Source: Candidatus Saccharimonadota bacterium (GTDB taxonomy: Bacteria > Patescibacteriota > Saccharimonadia > Saccharimonadales > UBA4665). From it: 32,000 bases of DNA. The notes below the pieces were generated by a model. The model was not told the origin of the DNA. It ran no database searches and worked only from the letters and a program-made list of their open reading frames with translations. Position 1 is the first letter of the stretch. The number at the start of each line of letters is the position of its first letter. Position numbers and translations under genes: made by a program. Of the stretch, positions 8,238 to 24,407 are shown in pieces. The DNA is taken from contig CP025011.1 of assembly GCA_002952755.1 (NCBI GenBank), positions 1,380,001 to 1,412,000 of the forward strand. Reading direction: 5' to 3'.

Positions 8238-8283
8238 ATTATAAAATAAATAATATTACCTATCAATGTGAGATATCTCACAT
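8238..8283 (-). promoter_or_regulatory. sigma70-type promoter (-35 TTGATA 8261-8266, 17-nt spacer, -10 TATAAT 8238-8243) with an 18-bp perfect palindrome ATGTGAGATATCTCACAT (8266-8283) overlapping the -35
   Basis: Read directly on the minus strand upstream of the ATG at 8213. The palindrome could also be the terminator hairpin of the upstream M50-like gene, because U-rich sequence follows it on the minus strand. Confidence 0.4.
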
Positions 8284-8304
8284 CAATATACGGTCGTCGA
8301 TGCA

Positions 8305-9141
8305 TTAAGATGGATTTTCTTGAATTCGTTGCGCCCAGATACTTCGGCCATCAGCGCATACAGGAAGTAAGCACATGGCATGTGGTATTGCGATACATAG
8401 TGGTATGAGATGGGAGATGCCGTGGCTGGCAATCATAACAATTGTACAGAAGATTATACCGCTCAGCGGACCGGCGGCAGCAATATTGCGTTCATGAACA
8501 ACACTTTGGGGCAGGTACATACAAGCTAGATAGCCTGCATGTGAAAGCAATACGGCGCGCTGACGGTATAGTTTGATTGCTACAATATGGCCTATCTCGT
8601 GAACGATACACGATGCGACCGCTGCCATTGATGCAGAAAGCAGCCACAGCGGAAAACCAGCCGCTAATGACCCTAACGCATACAGTACTAAAAACCCGAC
8701 GACAAAAAGTCCATATGCGCGCCACACGCCTTTTATAAAGCCGGCAAGCGATAATCGGTTGCGAGACCGCCAGACTAATCTTGCCTTCAATCGGAGCAGC
8801 CAATGATATTCGCTGCCCCACGTGACACGGAGGCCACCAATCCGAGCGAGTTGGCCGTAAAAAGCAGTTATCGCCTGCATGACTTCTGCGTATCTCAAAT
8901 TTTGCTCGCGGCTGATGTGTTGAGTCATTTCGTGCAGGTGCTTGCCTTTTCCTAAGTCGGCAAGCACCCTAATCGCATCTGTCGACAGACGATACTGAGT
9001 GTGTAGGCCTATGTCGTGTAACACCCCGCCGCGCACCTTGAAATCGGGATGCAGGACGGCAGAGGTACCTACTTGCACTGAATTTTGATGAGAGCTTTCC
9101 AGAAATCTACTTGGCTGACGCTGACGTGCCCCCAGCCACAT
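8305..9141 (-). CDS. polytopic membrane metalloprotease, site-2-protease (M50)-like, with an N-terminal PqqD/RRE-like domain
   Basis: HExxH lies inside a hydrophobic helix (CIVHEIGHIVAIKL, nt 8587-8601). A second M50-like motif LLPVCADGRSIW resembles NxxPxxxLDG. Residues ~28-107 (YRLSTDAIRVLADLGKGKHLHEMTQHISREQNLRYAEVMQAITAFYGQLARIGGL) fit the PqqD/RRE pattern. The start is uncertain: ATG 9141 gives a 73-nt overlap with the peptide gene, and GTG 9078 is the alternative. Confidence 0.6.
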   Translation of the reverse strand: MWLGARQRQPSRFLESSHQNSVQVGTSAVLHPDFKVRGGVLHDIGLHTQYRLSTDAIRVLADLGKGKHLHEMTQHISREQNLRYAEVMQAITAFYGQLARIGGLRVTWGSEYHWLLRLKARLVWRSRNRLSLAGFIKGVWRAYGLFVVGFLVLYALGSLAAGFPLWLLSASMAAVASCIVHEIGHIVAIKLYRQRAVLLSHAGYLACMYLPQSVVHERNIAAAGPLSGIIFCTIVMIASHGISHLIPLCIAIPHAMCLLPVCADGRSIWAQRIQENPS

Positions 9142-9263
9142 ACGGCGACCGCCGCAGCCGAAGCGCCACCCAACGCGATTCCGAATGCCAGCGCGTACAC
9201 TAATAATGGCCCTACTTCATTAATTACCGGTGGTTGGCCCACCGGAGTCATGGCGATAGTCAT
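9069..9263 (-). CDS. small hydrophobic peptide, 64 aa (MTIAMTPVGQPPVINEVGPLLVYALAFGIALGGASAAAVAVCGWGHVSVSQVDFWKALIKIQCK)
   Basis: The ATG at 9263 is preceded by AAGGAG with an 8-nt spacer. It has its own promoter-like sequence upstream. There is one Gly/Ala-rich TM-like segment and two Cys. It lies immediately 5' of the RRE-M50 gene on the same strand. Confidence 0.55.
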   Translation of the reverse strand: MTIAMTPVGQPPVINEVGPLLVYALAFGIALGGASAAAVAVCGWGHVSVSQVDFWKALIKIQCK

Positions 9264-9323
9264 AGCACCCACTCCTTGCTACTTAGTTTAAATTTGAATG
9301 TGTCTTTCCGGACCGACGGCTGC

Positions 9324-9352
9324 ATACTATCCAAGGCTCGTCGAACTTGCAA
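9324..9352 (-). promoter_or_regulatory. candidate promoter of the peptide/M50 operon (-35 TTGCAA 9347-9352, 17-nt spacer, -10 TAGTAT 9324-9329)
   Basis: Hexamers read on the minus strand, about 60 nt upstream of the peptide ATG. Confidence 0.35.
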
Positions 9353-15542: not shown

Positions 15543-16043
15543 TTACGTCTTCTTTTTGGACAATTTATCGAGCTTGAGGAGTTTAAAAATAGCGTACACG
15601 ATAACTGCTACGAGCAAAAAATTGAAGATCGTGTATACAACGTTGCCCCATTGAATTGCAGTAGCCCTGTTGCCCATATGCACCGTCCAGGTAAGATCGG
15701 TAAACTTCTGCTTGCCTGGCAAAAAGAGCTGCGTGACGGGCAGCACAAAACCATTCGTAATACTGTCTACTACTGTCTTCAACTGGGTACCAAGGACCAA
15801 TCCGATACCGATGCCGATGACGCTCTGGTCGCGCAAAAAATCGGTAAAGCCATCCACCTGACGGCTCATTTGTTTGGTAGCTTGCGAGGTAAGCGCCTGG
15901 CTCACCACTTCGGCTTGGCCAACAGGACCAAGATGGCGTAGCTTGGTAGCCACTTCTTTTACTTCACGTGTTTTGTTGGCAACGCGCGCGGCTTTGGCGC
16001 TGGTCTTGGTTTTATCCTCTGGTGTTGTGTTCTCAGCTTTCAC
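15543..16043 (-). CDS. mscL: large-conductance mechanosensitive channel MscL, possibly with a 58-aa Lys/Thr/Ala-rich N-terminal extension
   Basis: From M59 (nt 15869), MSRQVDGFTDFLRDQSVIGIGIGLVLG aligns with the canonical MscL N-terminus and both TM helices. The ORF track start at 16043 is a GTG located 9 nt after a TATAAT. The true start is unresolved (16043 or 15869). Confidence 0.8.
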   Translation of the reverse strand: MKAENTTPEDKTKTSAKAARVANKTREVKEVATKLRHLGPVGQAEVVSQALTSQATKQMSRQVDGFTDFLRDQSVIGIGIGLVLGTQLKTVVDSITNGFVLPVTQLFLPGKQKFTDLTWTVHMGNRATAIQWGNVVYTIFNFLLVAVIVYAIFKLLKLDKLSKKKT

Positions 16044-17248: not shown

Positions 17249-18295
17249 CTACTTACCCGCTAAGGGGATACGCAACACAAAACACGCACCTTTTGTGCCT
17301 GGGATATTCTGTGCACGCAGCTCGGCGTGGTTGGCGTCGGCAATAGCTCTGGCCAAACTTAAACCCAGCCCGTACCCGCTCACCTTGCTGCTACGGGCTT
17401 TGTCACCACGGTATAGGCGGTCAAAAATGCGAGGCATATCATCGGTATGGATGCCTGGACCTTGATCTTGCACCCATACCAGTAGATGCCCGTCCTCTGG
17501 CTTACTACCAACAGACACCACGCCTCCCTCAGGCCCGTATTTTATGGCATTGTCGAGCAGGATAACTAACAACTGCACCAGGCTGTTGGCATCGCCGATA
17601 ATATTGGCCTCTGCTATATCCTCCTTCCATTGCACCTGCCGTTTTTCGGCCACTTTTTTAACTTGCTGCAACGAGTCACCGATAATCTTCTGCACAGGCA
17701 AAGTTTTGAGATTGAGCGGCGTGCTCCCATATTGCGTTAAAGCAAGCAAGTTGCTCGATAGTCCTTCCAATCGCTGCACTTCCTCAAGATTACTCTGAAT
17801 AAGTTCGCGGGCGTCAGTTTCGCCAAATTGTTTTTGACGCAAAAAGATCTCATTTTCCAATTTAATGTTAGTGAGTGGCGTACGCAGTTCGTGGCTGGCA
17901 TCGGCCGCAAAACGAGCTTGTTCCTTGTGAGCCTTTTCGATTGGTCCAAGTGTGCGCCCGGCAAACCAGTAACTCAGCACGCCGCCAATAATCAAAGCTG
18001 CAATATTAATGAAAAATAAATCTTCATTGAGGCGCGTATGCACTTCCCCCGCCTGATCCTGCTGAAAATTGCTGAAATCATTGTAAGGCCGCCCAGGTAT
18101 ATAGAGTCCGCGCAAGAAAAGCTGCCGAGCTTCGCCGCGCTGTAAATCATTGCTATGCCCAAACTCGTGTTCAAACAACACCCGAAAGCTAAACGTCAGT
18201 GTAAAGCTAAACGCTAGCAGAATAGCGAGGTAAAAGAGAGTAAGCTTAACGCGCGCCGACTTAAACATAGTGCTCTTAGAGTACCTTGTACCCAT
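17249..18295 (-). CDS. two-component sensor histidine kinase (HisKA + HATPase_c, two N-terminal TM helices)
   Basis: H-box SHELRTPLT, N-box LDNAIKY, G-boxes DQGPGI and GYGLGL. The start is ambiguous (ATG 18295 or ATG 18268). Confidence 0.85.
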   Translation of the reverse strand: MGTRYSKSTMFKSARVKLTLFYLAILLAFSFTLTFSFRVLFEHEFGHSNDLQRGEARQLFLRGLYIPGRPYNDFSNFQQDQAGEVHTRLNEDLFFINIAALIIGGVLSYWFAGRTLGPIEKAHKEQARFAADASHELRTPLTNIKLENEIFLRQKQFGETDARELIQSNLEEVQRLEGLSSNLLALTQYGSTPLNLKTLPVQKIIGDSLQQVKKVAEKRQVQWKEDIAEANIIGDANSLVQLLVILLDNAIKYGPEGGVVSVGSKPEDGHLLVWVQDQGPGIHTDDMPRIFDRLYRGDKARSSKVSGYGLGLSLARAIADANHAELRAQNIPGTKGACFVLRIPLAGK

Positions 18296-18932
18296 GCCCT
18301 CGAATAGTGTGAATCACGTCGTCACCAATCTTTTTGCGCACATTAGCTACAAACGTCTCGACGGTATTGTGTTGCACGCGGGCTTCGTCAGCCCAGACAT
18401 GGTCGAGCAATTGATCTTTACTAATCACTTCCCGCTTGTGACGCAGTAAATATTCCAGCAACTGAAATTCCTTAGCGGTAAGGTGCACTAATTGCTTATC
18501 GACTGTTACCTCTTTAGAGACCACGTCAAGTTCCAACGCGCCAGATACAAAAAGATTACCTATGCTGGCTTGTGGCCGGCGCAAGAGTGCTCGCACGCGG
18601 GCCAGCAGTTCGTCAAACGAAAACGGCTTCGGCAGATAGTCATCAGCGCCAACATCCAATCCTTGCACGCGGTCGCCAATCGCCGCGCGGGCCGTAAGCA
18701 TCAAAATTGGCACTTGCGAACCGCTATCCCGCCAATACGTCACGAGCGCCGGCCCGTCACGGTGTCCCGGGATCATCCAATCCAGCAAAATAAGGTCGTA
18801 ACTGTTGGCATCGTGCAGCGTTTCGGCCATGTCACCGTCTTCGGCCACATCCACCACGTACCCTTCTGCGCCTAGACCCCGCTCCAAACTCTTAGCAATC
18901 TTCTCTTCGTCTTCGACAACTAATATTCGCAT
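18276..18932 (-). CDS. OmpR-family response regulator
   Basis: MRILVVEDE receiver domain with DWMIPG. The C-terminal winged-helix trans_reg_C has LTAKEFQLLEYL ... IHTIRGHGYK. I prefer the ATG at 18932 to the GTG at 18956 used by the track. Confidence 0.9.
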   Translation of the reverse strand: MRILVVEDEEKIAKSLERGLGAEGYVVDVAEDGDMAETLHDANSYDLILLDWMIPGHRDGPALVTYWRDSGSQVPILMLTARAAIGDRVQGLDVGADDYLPKPFSFDELLARVRALLRRPQASIGNLFVSGALELDVVSKEVTVDKQLVHLTAKEFQLLEYLLRHKREVISKDQLLDHVWADEARVQHNTVETFVANVRKKIGDDVIHTIRGHGYKVL

Positions 18933-19076
18933 AGTGCTTTTTATAGTATATCCCACCCCTGTGTACTAGCTGAAGATAATGAGCTCCCTAACTATTGCCA
19001 CTTCTATGTTGTGATGAACATTTGACAGATTTACGATACAATGCTTTACTAATAAATATAATTCTCAAACAAAAAG

Positions 19077-22003: not shown

Positions 22004-22579
22004 ATGAAGCTGGCCCATGCGAATACTACGCTCCTAGGCGCAATATTGCTTGTCTGCGGTTACATTGTCGTGATGCCGCTTGTGCCCATACTGACGTTTT
22101 GGTTTGAAAGCCATACCACCAGCCGATTGCAAATGCTTGGTTCTGAGCTGCATGTTCCACTCAGCAAAGAATCGGCTATGCCCGAGGGTAATCGCTTGGT
22201 TATTCCCGCTATGCTCCTTGACGCACCGATTAACGAAGGACAGACAATGGCGGCGCTGCATAGTGGCACTTGGCGCAGGCCAAACACTAGTACCCCAGAC
22301 AAAGGCAGCAATACTGTCATCGTCGCTCACCGTTTTACCTATACCGACCCTCGGGGTCCATTTTATTTTCTGAATAACATGCAGGTTGGTGACGAAATTG
22401 GCATTTTTTGGCAAGGCAAACGATATATCTACAAGGTGAATGCCACAAACGTTGTCCACCCAGATCAAGCTAGTATCGAGAACCCGACCTCGGACGCTCG
22501 TCTGACCCTCTATACATGTACGCCGCTGTGGCTCCCGAAAGATCGCCTGGTTGTAACTGCCGAACTGGAGCGAGGTTAG
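22004..22579 (+). CDS. sortase-family transpeptidase with an N-terminal membrane anchor
   Basis: Catalytic triad context VIVAHRF (His), TLYTCTP (TLxTC Cys) and RLVVTAELE (Arg). The N-terminal TM segment is LLGAILLVCGYIVVMPLVPILTF. Confidence 0.85.
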   Translation: MKLAHANTTLLGAILLVCGYIVVMPLVPILTFWFESHTTSRLQMLGSELHVPLSKESAMPEGNRLVIPAMLLDAPINEGQTMAALHSGTWRRPNTSTPDKGSNTVIVAHRFTYTDPRGPFYFLNNMQVGDEIGIFWQGKRYIYKVNATNVVHPDQASIENPTSDARLTLYTCTPLWLPKDRLVVTAELERG

Positions 22580-23185: not shown

Positions 23186-23392
23186 ATGTTAAGCACTGTA
23201 GGATTTTTGGATCTGGGAGCTCCAGAACTCATCATTATCCTGGCCATTGTGCTGCTCTTGTTTGGCGGCCGCAAACTGCCAGAGTTGTCTAAAAGCCTAG
23301 GCACTTCAATGCGCGAATTACGCAGTGGACTAAACGGCGATGGACACGATGAAAGCAAGAAAAAAGAAGATACGCCACGGTCAACTTCGTAG
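23186..23392 (+). CDS. tatA: twin-arginine translocase subunit TatA/E
   Basis: LGAPELIIILAIVLLLFGGRKLPELSKSLG is the canonical TatA TM segment, FG hinge and amphipathic helix. SD GAGGG lies upstream. Confidence 0.9.
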   Translation: MLSTVGFLDLGAPELIIILAIVLLLFGGRKLPELSKSLGTSMRELRSGLNGDGHDESKKKEDTPRSTS

Positions 23393-24407
23393 GCTCGAGA
23401 ACAAGAAACTCCCCTTCGCCGAACACTTGCACGAATTACGCAGGCGGCTATTGTATGTGGCGCTCTCTATTGGCCTCTGGGGAACTGCAGCATACGCCGT
23501 CCAACAGCACATTGTGAATGCGCTGTTGCAGCCTGCGCATAATCAGCAATTTATTTATACCTCGGTTGGTGGCGGCATCGACTTTTTATTCCGGGTTTGT
23601 ATATATACCGGCATCGCCTGCAGTATCCCAGTTATTGTATTCCAGATCCTCAAATATCTGGAGCCACTCATTAAGAAAGATGCCATCAGATTTATAGCCT
23701 GGGGTAGTGTCGCTTCGGGAGTATTAGCCGCTGCTGGAATGATTTTTGGTTACTACATTGGCCTACCCGCAGCGCTGCACTTCTTATTGCATCAGTTTAC
23801 AACCAATCAGATCCATCCCCTGCTTACCATCCAGTCGTACATGGGCTTTGTTACTCTATACATGTTGGGTTCTGCTCTGCTCTTCCAAGTGCCACTATTG
23901 CTGATACTTATTAACCGCATTAAGCCGCTTCGTCCTAAAAAATTATTGGGACTGGAGCGCTGGGTGATACTCATCGCCTTTGTTCTGGGTGGTATCATGA
24001 ATCCTTCGCCGCGAATACAAGATCAGATCTTGCTGGCCGGACCAATGATCATCGCCTACCACGTCGGCGTTGGCATTGTCTGGTTCGCGAATCGGCGTTC
24101 AAGACGCCCTAAACGGGTGATTAGCATGCGAGAAAAGGATATCGAGGCGCGGGTTGCACGTTATGAACAATTCCAAGCAGCTCAGGCCCTTCTACAGAAA
24201 CGCAATCCTACTACAGCTTCCCCTGTAGCACCGGTGCAATCTCCGGCCACTATTGTTCGGCCGGCCGCCCGCTCTGTTCCAGTACAAGCGAGGGCTACCA
24301 CGCCAATGACAGCAGAAAGAGTTCGGCCCCGTTATGCAGACGGCTTTACGCCGCGGCGCAATCCTCGCAGTTTTGGCGGAACAGGGGCAGTCAGTACCGC
24401 CTTGTGA
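23340..24407 (+). CDS. tatC: twin-arginine translocase subunit TatC with a ~100-aa Pro/Arg/Ala-rich C-terminal extension
   Basis: N-terminal EHLHELRRRL motif followed by six hydrophobic helices. The only in-frame starts (23340, 23349) lie inside tatA, giving an overlap of up to 53 nt. Confidence 0.85.
   Translation: MDTMKARKKKIRHGQLRRLENKKLPFAEHLHELRRRLLYVALSIGLWGTAAYAVQQHIVNALLQPAHNQQFIYTSVGGGIDFLFRVCIYTGIACSIPVIVFQILKYLEPLIKKDAIRFIAWGSVASGVLAAAGMIFGYYIGLPAALHFLLHQFTTNQIHPLLTIQSYMGFVTLYMLGSALLFQVPLLLILINRIKPLRPKKLLGLERWVILIAFVLGGIMNPSPRIQDQILLAGPMIIAYHVGVGIVWFANRRSRRPKRVISMREKDIEARVARYEQFQAAQALLQKRNPTTASPVAPVQSPATIVRPAARSVPVQARATTPMTAERVRPRYADGFTPRRNPRSFGGTGAVSTAL

What the first reader, a model, noticed from the sequence alone, without database searches (positions are those of the whole stretch)
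8305..9263. Small hydrophobic peptide gene coupled to a PqqD/RRE-domain-fused site-2-protease-like membrane metalloprotease
A 64-aa ORF (9263-9069) has a consensus SD (AAGGAG, 8-nt spacer) and its own promoter-like hexamers. It is followed on the same strand by a polytopic protein with HEIGH inside a TM helix plus an LLPVCADG motif, both M50/S2P hallmarks. The first ~100 residues of that protein follow the PqqD/RiPP-recognition-element pattern. RRE domains bind precursor peptides in RiPP pathways. Fusion to an intramembrane protease next to a Gly/Ala-rich, 2-Cys, single-TM peptide (internal LGG, amphipathic tail VDFWKALIKIQCK) suggests a minimal peptide-maturation or peptide-release module, such as a bacteriocin-like or signalling peptide. 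The alternative is a dedicated S2P and substrate pair. The two ORFs overlap out of frame by 73 nt if the protease uses ATG 9141. No radical-SAM, YcaO, lanthipeptide or ABC-transporter gene is nearby, so this would be an unusual protease-only arrangement.
Basis: partly seen in the sequence, partly recalled or inferred. Interest (0 to 1): 0.65.

Follow-up and report, generated by a model that had tools for sequence, protein, structure and literature searches.

The report
Peptide gene with RRE-fused intramembrane protease
A small, strongly conserved membrane-peptide gene sits directly in front of a protease that joins a peptide-recognition domain to a membrane-embedded zinc protease; this design is known from "daptide" natural-product clusters, but here, in Saccharibacteria, it occurs without any of the daptide-modifying enzymes.

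Summary
The 64-aa ORF (9263-9069) is a real gene. Its length is fixed at 64-65 aa in 52 sequence clusters. Non-synonymous change is far below the saturated synonymous change. It has a conserved promoter and Shine-Dalgarno site. In every locus with enough DNA, a roughly 250-aa protein follows it directly. In family profiles and in a confident AlphaFold model, that protein is an N-terminal PqqD/RRE domain fused to a minimal site-2-protease (M50) core, with invariant HExxH and P-x3-D-G motifs. Homologues place its start at GTG 9078, not ATG 9141.

The full ancestral cassette has five genes: peptide, RRE-S2P, ABC ATPase, a 10-12-TM permease and a 2-TM protein. The window carries a reduced two-gene form.

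The architecture is not new. RRE-S2P fusions are the leader peptidases (MpaP/DapP) of daptide clusters. This system lacks DapB/C/D/M and the invariant C-terminal Thr. Its core instead ends in a hairpin with two invariant Cys.

Best reading: the RRE binds the leader, the protease probably cuts after invariant Pro19, and a 45-aa hydrophobic peptide is released.

Verdict: a new variant of a known kind, moderately interesting.

The parts
9324..9352 (-). Promoter of the peptide operon: -35 TTGCAA (9352-9347), 17-nt spacer, -10 TAGTAT (9329-9324)
   Evidence: The TTG of the -35 and TA-TAT of the -10 are invariant columns in an alignment of 13 loci. The site scores 8/12, below the generic scan threshold. 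A terminator-like hairpin after rpoD lies at 9518-9504.
9272..9277 (-). Shine-Dalgarno AAGGAG, 8 nt upstream of the ATG
   Evidence: Read directly from the sequence. GGAG-type sites occupy the same position in related loci.
9069..9263 (-). Precursor peptide gene, 64 aa plus stop: MTIAMTPVGQPPVINEVGPLLVYALAFGIALGGASAAAVAVCGWGHVSVSQVDFWKALIKIQCK
   Evidence: 52 clusters of 64-65 aa, all annotated as hypothetical. Invariant residues are P19, F27, A30, G32, C42, G43 and C63. Median dN/dS is 0.13. The peptide is more conserved than the enzyme in 55 of 55 pairs.
9207..9263 (-). Proposed leader, residues 1-19, ending in V-I-N-E-V-G-P. Cleavage after P19 is inferred.
   Evidence: Residues 1-16 are predicted disordered. 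The leader is less conserved than the core, 44% against 67%. E16 is present in 49 of 51 sequences and P19 in 51 of 51. Daptide leaders end in E-A-P with Pro at position -1 (PMC10028931).
9072..9206 (-). Proposed 45-aa core, residues 20-64: a hydrophobic helix with small-residue motifs (ALGG), then CGWGH, then a cationic beta-hairpin ending in C-K
   Evidence: AlphaFold predicts a helix at 17-42 and strands at 47-53 and 58-63, with pLDDT 85-92. C42 and C63 are invariant. The C-tail has a net charge of +2.
8305..9078 (-). RRE-S2P fusion protein, 257 aa from GTG 9078. It overlaps the end of the peptide gene by 10 nt.
   Evidence: The gene-caller product is P0001. All homologues align from residue 28 of the longer ORF. 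AlphaFold gives pLDDT 94.7 and pTM 0.89.
8821..9066 (-). PqqD/RRE domain, about residues 5-86, with beta-beta-beta then alpha-alpha-alpha order
   Evidence: The family profile hits TfuB1 (6jx3_B) at E=1.4e-4. Foldseek gives TMt 0.84 and rmsd 1.6 A to 6jx3_B, and also hits TbiB1 and PqqD. 11 of 50 relatives hit PF05402, and three pass its cut-off.
8329..8760 (-). Site-2-protease (M50) membrane core, about residues 107-250: four TM helices and a beta-hairpin. HEIGH lies at 8601-8587, the GP motif at residues 203-204, and LLPVCADG at 8370-8347.
   Evidence: The family profile hits mjS2P 3b4r at E=9.3e-13, and also RseP and SpoIVFB. Foldseek top hits are 3b4r and 8vjl. H160, E161, H164, P239 and D243 are invariant in 50 sequences.

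Best explanation
This is a two-gene peptide-maturation module of the daptide-peptidase type.

The operon has its own promoter and encodes two products. The first is a 64-aa precursor. The second is translationally coupled to it and is a membrane protein: a cytoplasmic N-terminal RRE (PqqD-like) domain joined to a minimal site-2-protease zinc core.

Inferred mechanism:
1. The RRE binds the N-terminal leader of the precursor (residues 1 to about 19).
2. This holds the junction between the leader and the hydrophobic segment at the zinc site, which lies near the cytoplasmic face of the membrane.
3. The protease cuts most probably just after the invariant Pro19 of the N-E-V-G/A-P motif, as daptide leaders end in E-A-P.
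4. A 45-aa core is released. It consists of a small-residue-rich hydrophobic helix and a cationic beta-hairpin, probably stapled by a Cys42-Cys63 disulfide.

In the complete five-gene cassettes of relatives, a DrrA/ABC-2-type transporter and a 2-TM protein would export the peptide or protect the producer. The window's lineage has lost these genes or never had them here.

The product is most likely a membrane-active or signalling peptide. Its actual role is unknown.

Shown: gene reality, conservation, strict adjacency, domain identities, intact catalytic motifs, cassette composition.

Inferred: binding, cleavage, cleavage site, disulfide, export, biological role.
For: Peptide and enzyme are adjacent in every locus that holds enough DNA, whether the search started from the enzyme or from the peptide. 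Gene spacing runs from -10 to +13 nt.

The peptide is under purifying selection. Its promoter and SD are conserved.

Both domains are established at family level: profile hits to mjS2P at 9.3e-13 and TfuB1 at 1.4e-4; 28 of 50 members hit M50 and 11 of 50 hit PqqD; three relatives pass the PqqD cut-off; the AlphaFold model has pLDDT 94.7; Foldseek hits 3b4r, 8vjl, 6jx3_B, 5v1u and 5sxy, all at probability 0.99-1.0.

The invariant HExxH and P-x3-D-G motifs are retained in both the two-gene and the five-gene forms.

The leader is predicted disordered and the core structured. E16 and P19 are near-invariant or invariant at the junction.

There is precedent. An RRE fused N-terminally to an intramembrane S2P is the proposed daptide leader peptidase. 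Daptide precursors have a leader ending in ...EAP, a hydrophobic core and ABC exporters (PMC10028931; 10.1101/2025.07.11.664356).

The ABC ATPase of the cassette falls in the DrrA / lantibiotic-protection group.
Against: There is no direct evidence of binding or cleavage.

The window protein alone fails both Pfam cut-offs.

The charge distribution of the peptide (N-tail -1.4, C-tail +2) would favour an N-out/C-in orientation if it inserted spontaneously. That is the wrong way round for a cytoplasmic RRE to bind the N-terminus of an already inserted peptide.

The core is more conserved than the leader and far more conserved than the enzyme. This is unusual for antimicrobial RiPP cores and hints at a conserved partner or a structural role.

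Five loci, including the window, keep the peptide without any local transporter or immunity gene. This argues against a self-toxic bacteriocin.

The motif register differs from daptides: Glu is at -4 here and at -3 in daptides.

No DapP sequence was available, so specific homology to DapP, beyond shared architecture, was not tested.
Confidence: 0.68

Rival explanations
1. Regulated intramembrane proteolysis for signalling. The peptide is a membrane-anchored substrate whose cleavage by the dedicated S2P releases or destroys a regulator, as with RseA/RseP or pro-sigma-K/SpoIVFB. It is not a secreted product.
For: S2P enzymes classically act in sigma-factor pathways. In group 1 the locus lies directly downstream of rpoD, and in some group-2 loci it lies next to a sigma-70 gene. 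The core is highly conserved, as expected for a peptide with a fixed cellular partner. Several lineages lack any exporter.
Against: The cytoplasmic portion is only about 16-19 residues long, variable and predicted disordered. No anti-sigma or DNA-binding domain is detected. The ancestral cassette carries an ABC exporter. Other family members are not next to sigma genes. RRE domains are known from peptide-maturation pathways.
Confidence: 0.12
2. The peptide is not a substrate. It is a partner or inhibitor subunit of the protease, like BofA for SpoIVFB. Alternatively, the RRE-M50 protein is an immunity or receptor protein for the peptide.
For: The one-to-one gene pairing is strict. The peptide is a single-span membrane peptide. 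From general knowledge, membrane proteases serve as bacteriocin immunity proteins (CPBP/Abi) or as bacteriocin receptors (RseP for LsbB-type bacteriocins).
Against: The peptide has a strong SD and the enzyme has none, which fits a substrate made in excess over its enzyme. The invariant catalytic HExxH and D residues argue for catalysis. The RRE plus a disordered leader fits leader-dependent processing, as proposed for DapP.
Confidence: 0.08
3. It is a true daptide system whose modifying enzymes (DapB/C/D/M) are encoded elsewhere in the genome.
For: It shares the RRE-S2P peptidase, a short hydrophobic precursor, a leader ending in a Glu...Ala/Gly-Pro motif, and ABC genes in relatives.
Against: The class-defining C-terminal Thr is absent from all 51 aligned sequences; the C-terminus is C-K or C-R in 48 of them. 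No aminotransferase, alcohol dehydrogenase, methyltransferase or DUF-RRE gene lies in the window or beside the cassette in any of the related loci whose neighbours were listed.
Confidence: 0.03

Closest known systems
Daptide leader peptidase MpaP/DapP with DapA precursors and DapT1T2 ABC exporter (Ren et al. 2023, PMC10028931; 10.1101/2025.07.11.664356)
   Same: An RRE domain is fused N-terminally to an intramembrane site-2 protease. Short precursor genes lie adjacent. The leader ends in a Glu-x-Ala/Gly-Pro-type motif with Pro just before a hydrophobic, small-residue-rich core. An ABC-2-type transporter is in the cluster, in the full cassettes of relatives. TfDapP likewise has no Pfam annotation.
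   Different: DapB (DUF-RRE), DapC, DapD and DapM are absent. There is no C-terminal Thr. The core is 45 aa with two invariant Cys and a beta-hairpin tail ending in C-K/R. Each locus has one precursor rather than about 2-10. The cassette adds a 10-12-TM permease of no known family and a 2-TM protein. The hosts are Saccharimonadales/Patescibacteria, whereas daptides were reported from Actinomycetota, Bacillota and one Pseudomonadota cluster. Sequence-level relatedness to DapP was not tested.
Epipeptide operon epeXEPAB (yydFGHIJ) of Bacillus subtilis (PMC10885120, PMC12871923)
   Same: The gene order is similar: small precursor, then membrane M50 peptidase (EpeP), then a two-component ABC transporter (EpeAB, autoimmunity). 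The product is membrane-active.
   Different: The epe operon needs the radical-SAM epimerase EpeE. No RRE on EpeP is mentioned in the reviews I read. The mature product is a 17-mer.
Lasso peptide leader peptidase with RRE (B1/B2, or fused B protein; TfuB1 6jx3, TbiB1 5v1u)
   Same: An RRE delivers the leader to a protease and activates it. The RRE here is structurally closest to lasso B1 proteins.
   Different: The lasso protease is a soluble transglutaminase-like Cys protease and works with an ATP-dependent cyclase. Neither is present here.
Canonical site-2 proteases (mjS2P, SpoIVFB, RseP)
   Same: HExxH lies in a TM helix and Asp lies in an xPxxxDG motif of a later TM. There is a beta-hairpin after the HExxH helix and a GP motif.
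   Different: There are no PDZ or CBS domains, and substrate capture is by an RRE instead. The core is minimal at about 150 aa. The protein falls below Pfam's M50 threshold.

Membership tests
PqqD / RiPP recognition element (PF05402) | Score above Pfam's gathering threshold | tested here: not met
   The window protein gives no PqqD hit at E<=1. Homologues of the same family do pass: P0061 35.7, P0054 30.7 and P0046 30.3 bits against a cut-off of 23.4. 11 of 50 members hit at E<=0.1.
PqqD / RiPP recognition element (PF05402) | Winged-helix fold with beta-beta-beta then alpha-alpha-alpha order | tested here: met
   AlphaFold predicts strands 6-9, 13-16, 19-22 and 27-30, then helices 33-43, 48-59 and 63-79, with pLDDT above 90. 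Foldseek gives TfuB1 TMt 0.84 at rmsd 1.6 A, TbiB1 0.82 and PqqD 0.70. The family profile hits TfuB1 at E=1.4e-4.
PqqD / RiPP recognition element (PF05402) | Binds the leader of a co-encoded precursor peptide | not testable with these tools
Only adjacency and conservation are shown.
Peptidase M50 / site-2 protease (PF02163) | Score above Pfam's gathering threshold | tested here: not met
   13.9-14.2 bits against a cut-off of 27.2. 28 of 50 relatives hit weakly, best E 9.3e-6.
Peptidase M50 / site-2 protease (PF02163) | HExxH within a TM helix, plus an Asp ligand in an xPxxxDG motif of a later TM segment | tested here: met
   H160, E161, H164, P239 and D243 are invariant and G244 is at least 90% conserved in 50 sequences. 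HEIGH lies in helix 144-170. The motifs align with HELGH and PMDGG of mjS2P.
Peptidase M50 / site-2 protease (PF02163) | Homology and fold of the S2P core | tested here: met
   The family profile hits 3b4r at E=9.3e-13 over profile positions 124-252, and also RseP, aq_1964 and SpoIVFB. Foldseek top hits are 3b4r and 8vjl at probability 1.0.
Daptide biosynthetic gene cluster | Invariant C-terminal Thr on the precursor, which is converted to Dmp | tested here: not met
   The last residue is K or R in 48 of 51 sequences. The penultimate Cys is invariant.
Daptide biosynthetic gene cluster | DapB (DUF-RRE), DapC oxidoreductase, DapD PLP aminotransferase and DapM methyltransferase in the cluster | tested here: not met
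   None appears among the window ORFs or beside the cassette in the related loci whose neighbouring genes were listed.
Daptide biosynthetic gene cluster | RRE-S2P fusion peptidase (DapP) | tested here: met
   The architecture matches the published description. Specific sequence homology to DapP was not tested, because no DapP sequence was available.
Daptide biosynthetic gene cluster | Leader motif ELExMEAP ending at position -1 | tested here: inconclusive
   The window has V-I-N-E-V-G-P and the family consensus is V-V-N-E-V-A-P. The distant relative L017 has ELTEEVAP. The daptide examples have ELEAMEAP. The Ala/Gly-Pro end and an upstream Glu are shared, but the register differs by one.
Epipeptide (epeXEPAB) system | Radical-SAM epimerase EpeE next to the precursor | tested here: not met
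   No radical-SAM domain appears in the window or in the related cassettes.
Lasso peptide cluster | Transglutaminase-like B2 protease and Asn-synthetase-like cyclase | tested here: not met
   Absent from the window and from the related loci (same calls). Only the RRE resembles lasso B1 proteins.

The most novel reading that the evidence does not exclude
This is a distinct, unnamed family of DapP-type (RRE-S2P dependent) peptides. The only maturation steps are leader removal by an intramembrane protease and perhaps one disulfide. The cassette is vertically conserved at one chromosomal site in soil and rhizosphere Saccharimonadales, and divergent four-Cys versions occur in high-GC bacteria. Because the core is conserved far more tightly than its protease, it may be a membrane effector or signal used in the episymbiotic lifestyle rather than an arms-race bacteriocin.
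Probability: 0.45. Interest if true: 0.72.

Novelty: new variant of a known kind. Interest (0 to 1): 0.55.

Why it matters
Saccharibacteria are ultrasmall episymbionts with reduced genomes, and few candidate secreted or membrane effectors are known from them. A peptide-maturation locus kept at one site across many lineages marks a function worth testing.

For RiPP enzymology, the module is the simplest natural setting for studying leader-guided intramembrane proteolysis by an RRE-S2P enzyme. It has one substrate, one enzyme and no other modifications. For DapP this activity has been proposed, and I found no reconstitution of it in the papers I read.

It also shows that the DapP-type peptidase is not tied to daptide chemistry and serves at least one other precursor family.

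Tried and rejected
1. Direct Pfam and NCBIfam scans of the window proteins gave only a sub-threshold M50 hit. A phmmer search of PDB with the single sequence gave nothing.

The narrower alignment A5 worked.

3. A profile word-index search with A3 was swamped by generic M50-CBS proteases.

The key binding model could therefore not be made.

5. A Foldseek search with the peptide model gave no meaningful hit.

6. The generic promoter scan missed the operon promoter. Comparative alignment found it.

7. RNA folding of the 5' UTR gave z=0.72 and Rfam gave nothing, so no riboswitch or leader RNA is indicated.

8. A link to rpoD, such as a pro-sigma substrate, was considered and rejected. Family members occur at other sites, and RpoD shows no pro-sequence.

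9. tblastn found no ABC remnants in the window or in the two-gene loci. The downstream 243-aa ORF has no counterpart in the related loci.

10. tblastn of a family member against plasmids, to find an annotated DapP, gave no match. The supplements held no DapP sequence.

11. The N-terminus of TfDapA1 (MQDITPQPNEVA) resembles the leaders here. Other daptide leaders vary in that region, so I do not rely on this.
Full report
**What is in the window**

On the minus strand, rpoD (10691-9543) is followed by a terminator-like hairpin at 9518-9504. Then comes the 64-aa ORF at 9263-9069, with AAGGAG at 9277-9272, 8 nt before its ATG. An ORF ending at 8305 overlaps the end of the peptide gene.

Downstream lie an orphan 243-aa ORF (8213-7482), a P-loop kinase-like gene and a polyprenyl synthase. 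Pfam scans of essentially all larger ORFs in the 32 kb find no radical-SAM, YcaO, lanthipeptide, aminotransferase, methyltransferase or ABC genes.

**The peptide gene is real**

A first search found only one relative of the membrane protein, at 36% identity. Its 1.6-kb contig showed the same order: rpoD 3' end, then a 64-aa ORF, then the membrane protein, then an ABC ATPase.

The exhaustive representative search found 65 clusters of the enzyme. Loci were fetched in three ways:
- through the enzyme;
- through the peptide alone;
- through peptide clusters.

In every case with enough flanking DNA, the two genes are adjacent and on the same strand, spaced -10 to +13 nt apart.

The peptide family has 52 clusters at 90% identity. 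Almost all are exactly 64 or 65 aa, and all are annotated as hypothetical. Those that carry a source name are assigned to Saccharimonadales or Patescibacteria, apart from one labelled Bacillota.

Across 13 genes, the median non-synonymous difference is 0.27 against 0.74 for synonymous sites, which are saturated. Median dN/dS is 0.13 where it can be computed, and 0.033 against the closest locus.

The hexamers TTGCAA (9352-9347) and TAGTAT (9329-9324), 17 nt apart, score only 8 of 12, so the generic scan missed them. Their TTG and TA-TAT positions are invariant in an alignment of 13 loci.

**The enzyme**

All homologues align from residue 28 of the 278-aa ORF to their own residue 3. The position equivalent to their ATG is ACC in the window. 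The start is therefore GTG 9078, which gives the 257-aa product P0001 that the gene caller also chose. It overlaps the peptide gene by 10 nt, not 73.

On its own, this protein gives only a sub-threshold M50 hit and no PqqD hit. The family gives much more:
- A 50-sequence alignment has invariant D22, R106, H160, E161, H164, G203, P239 and D243.
- Its profile hits the Methanocaldococcus S2P 3b4r at E=9.3e-13 over the membrane half, and the lasso-peptide RRE TfuB1 at E=1.4e-4 over residues 13-78. RseP, aq_1964, SpoIVFB and TbiB1 follow.
- 28 of 50 members hit Peptidase_M50 and 11 of 50 hit PqqD.
- Three divergent members pass Pfam's PqqD cut-off.

AlphaFold2 with this alignment gives pLDDT 94.7 and pTM 0.89. 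The model has a beta-beta-beta then alpha-alpha-alpha domain at residues 6-79. Four TM helices follow. HEIGH lies in helix 144-170, a beta-hairpin at 175-188, GP in helix 193-217, and LLPVCADG after helix 220-235.

The best Foldseek hits in PDB are mjS2P, SpoIVFB:pro-sigma-K, TfuB1 (TMt 0.84, rmsd 1.6 A), TbiB1 and PqqD, all at probability 0.99-1.0.

From the positive residues before TM1 and the absence of a signal peptide, I infer that the RRE is cytoplasmic and that the zinc site lies near the cytoplasmic face.

**The cassette**

Most relatives carry three more genes directly after the enzyme:
- an ABC ATPase, whose best NCBIfam matches are DrrA and the lantibiotic-protection ATPase, below their cut-offs;
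- a 430-510-aa permease with about 10-12 hydrophobic segments and no family match;
- a roughly 100-120-aa protein with two hydrophobic segments.

The window and loci L003, L004, L005 and L012 have only the peptide and the enzyme. No remnants of the other genes are detectable. In these reduced loci the catalytic motifs are intact and the peptide is still under strong constraint.

More distant cassettes come from higher-GC organisms. They have the same order, but with 70-92-aa peptides carrying four Cys and ending in CK, CKR or CRR.

**The peptide**

Invariant residues are P19, F27, A30, G32, C42, G43 and C63. E16, L25, G33, A36, A38, G45 and I61 are nearly invariant.

AlphaFold2 with 51 sequences predicts a disordered segment at 1-16, a helix at 17-42 and a beta-hairpin at 47-53 and 58-63, with pLDDT 85-92 for the structured part. 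C42 at the end of the helix and C63 at the end of the hairpin could form a disulfide; this is inference.

The N-tail is acidic (mean -1.4) and the C-tail basic (+2). The peptide is more conserved than the enzyme in 55 of 55 pairs, with medians of 59% and 38%. The core (67%) is more conserved than the leader (44%).

**Comparison with what is known**

My first literature searches for RRE or PqqD together with M50 or S2P found only M50 peptidases without a mentioned RRE: EpeP of the epipeptide operon, and TglG and TmoG of the pearlins.

Reading the daptide paper changed the picture. [quoted passage not shown] Multi-component ABC transporters co-occur. [quoted passage not shown] TfDapP and SaDapP carry no Pfam annotation, and DapT1/T2 are an ABC ATPase and an ABC-2 permease. 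Daptide precursors read ...ELEAMEAP|GFWT...T.

The window system shares the peptidase architecture, the short hydrophobic precursor and a leader ending in Glu-x-x-Pro (NEVGP here, NEVAP in the family consensus, ELTEEVAP in a distant relative). Its relatives also share the ABC genes.

It fails the class-defining daptide tests. There is no C-terminal Thr in any of the 51 aligned sequences. No DapB, DapC, DapD or DapM is present in the window or beside the cassette in any related locus whose neighbours were listed. It is therefore not a daptide. It works like the leader-removal and export part of a daptide pathway, applied to a different precursor family with a Cys-hairpin core.

**Mechanism and confidence**

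I commit to RRE-guided leader removal by the S2P core, with confidence of about 0.68. Cleavage after Pro19 is the most likely site, at about 0.45. It rests on the analogy with daptides and on the invariance of P19.

The biological role is open. The hydrophobic helix rich in small residues and the cationic hairpin suggest membrane activity. However, the very strong conservation of the core, and its retention without a local transporter, argue against a classical self-toxic bacteriocin. They leave room for a signalling or structural role.

The charge distribution is also unresolved. If the peptide inserts into the membrane before processing, the positive-inside rule predicts that the N-terminus lies outside, away from the RRE.

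**Verdict**

The architecture is already known from daptides. The find is a new, protease-only variant in a phylum where it had not been reported in the papers I could search.

Noticed in passing
window 8238-8288 (minus strand) and ORF 8213-7482: A near-consensus promoter, TTGATA-17-TATAAT (11 of 12), overlaps a 28-bp palindrome (TATCAATGTGAGAT|ATCTCACATCAATA, 8261-8288). It lies just upstream of an orphan 243-aa ORF that has no Pfam or NCBIfam match and no counterpart in any related locus. This ORF occupies the position where relatives carry the ABC genes.
   Followed up: partly
window about 9300-9322 (minus strand), and the same position in L001, L003 and L006-L011: A conserved motif, CGTCGnnCCGGAAnGA, lies directly downstream of the -10 box of the peptide operon. 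It is absent from the L004/L005/L012/L013 subgroup. The RNA fold is no better than shuffled sequence (z=0.72), so it may be a DNA operator or a start-site element.
   Followed up: partly
L003 (DATIJU010000008.1): The record is titled 'Bacillota bacterium'. However, its RpoD is 89% identical to the window's, and it shares the Saccharimonadales synteny and an 81%-identical peptide. The MAG is probably mislabelled.
   Followed up: no
L016, L017, L018, L019 (57-75% GC): These hold divergent cassettes with the same gene order. The precursors are 70-92 aa, carry four Cys (C-x2-3-C ... C ... C-K/R) and have longer leaders. Three contain a Y-x-x-P motif reminiscent of lasso leaders. This looks like a sister peptide family served by the same kind of RRE-S2P enzyme.
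   Followed up: partly
L021 and L022 against L014, L015 and L002: Group-2 cassettes (65-aa peptide) sit next to polA. In some of them a sigma-70 gene lies between polA and the cassette, divergently oriented. In group 1 the cassette follows rpoD. The recurring neighbourhood of the primary sigma gene may reflect an ancestral position or may be coincidence.
   Followed up: no
window 17249-18956, 22004-22579, 23340-24407, 15543-16043: Other genes in the window include a histidine kinase and OmpR-type response regulator pair, a sortase, TatC and MscL. None is linked to the peptide locus in the related contigs.
   Followed up: no
TfDapA1 (supplement of 10.1101/2025.07.11.664356) against the group-1 leaders: The N-terminus of the Thermobifida daptide precursor (MQDITPQPNEVA...) resembles the leaders here (for example MNIAIVPQANVTVLNEVAP). 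That part of the leader was dispensable for DapBC, so it might be the part recognised by DapP. Other daptide leaders vary in this region, so the resemblance is only anecdotal.
   Followed up: partly
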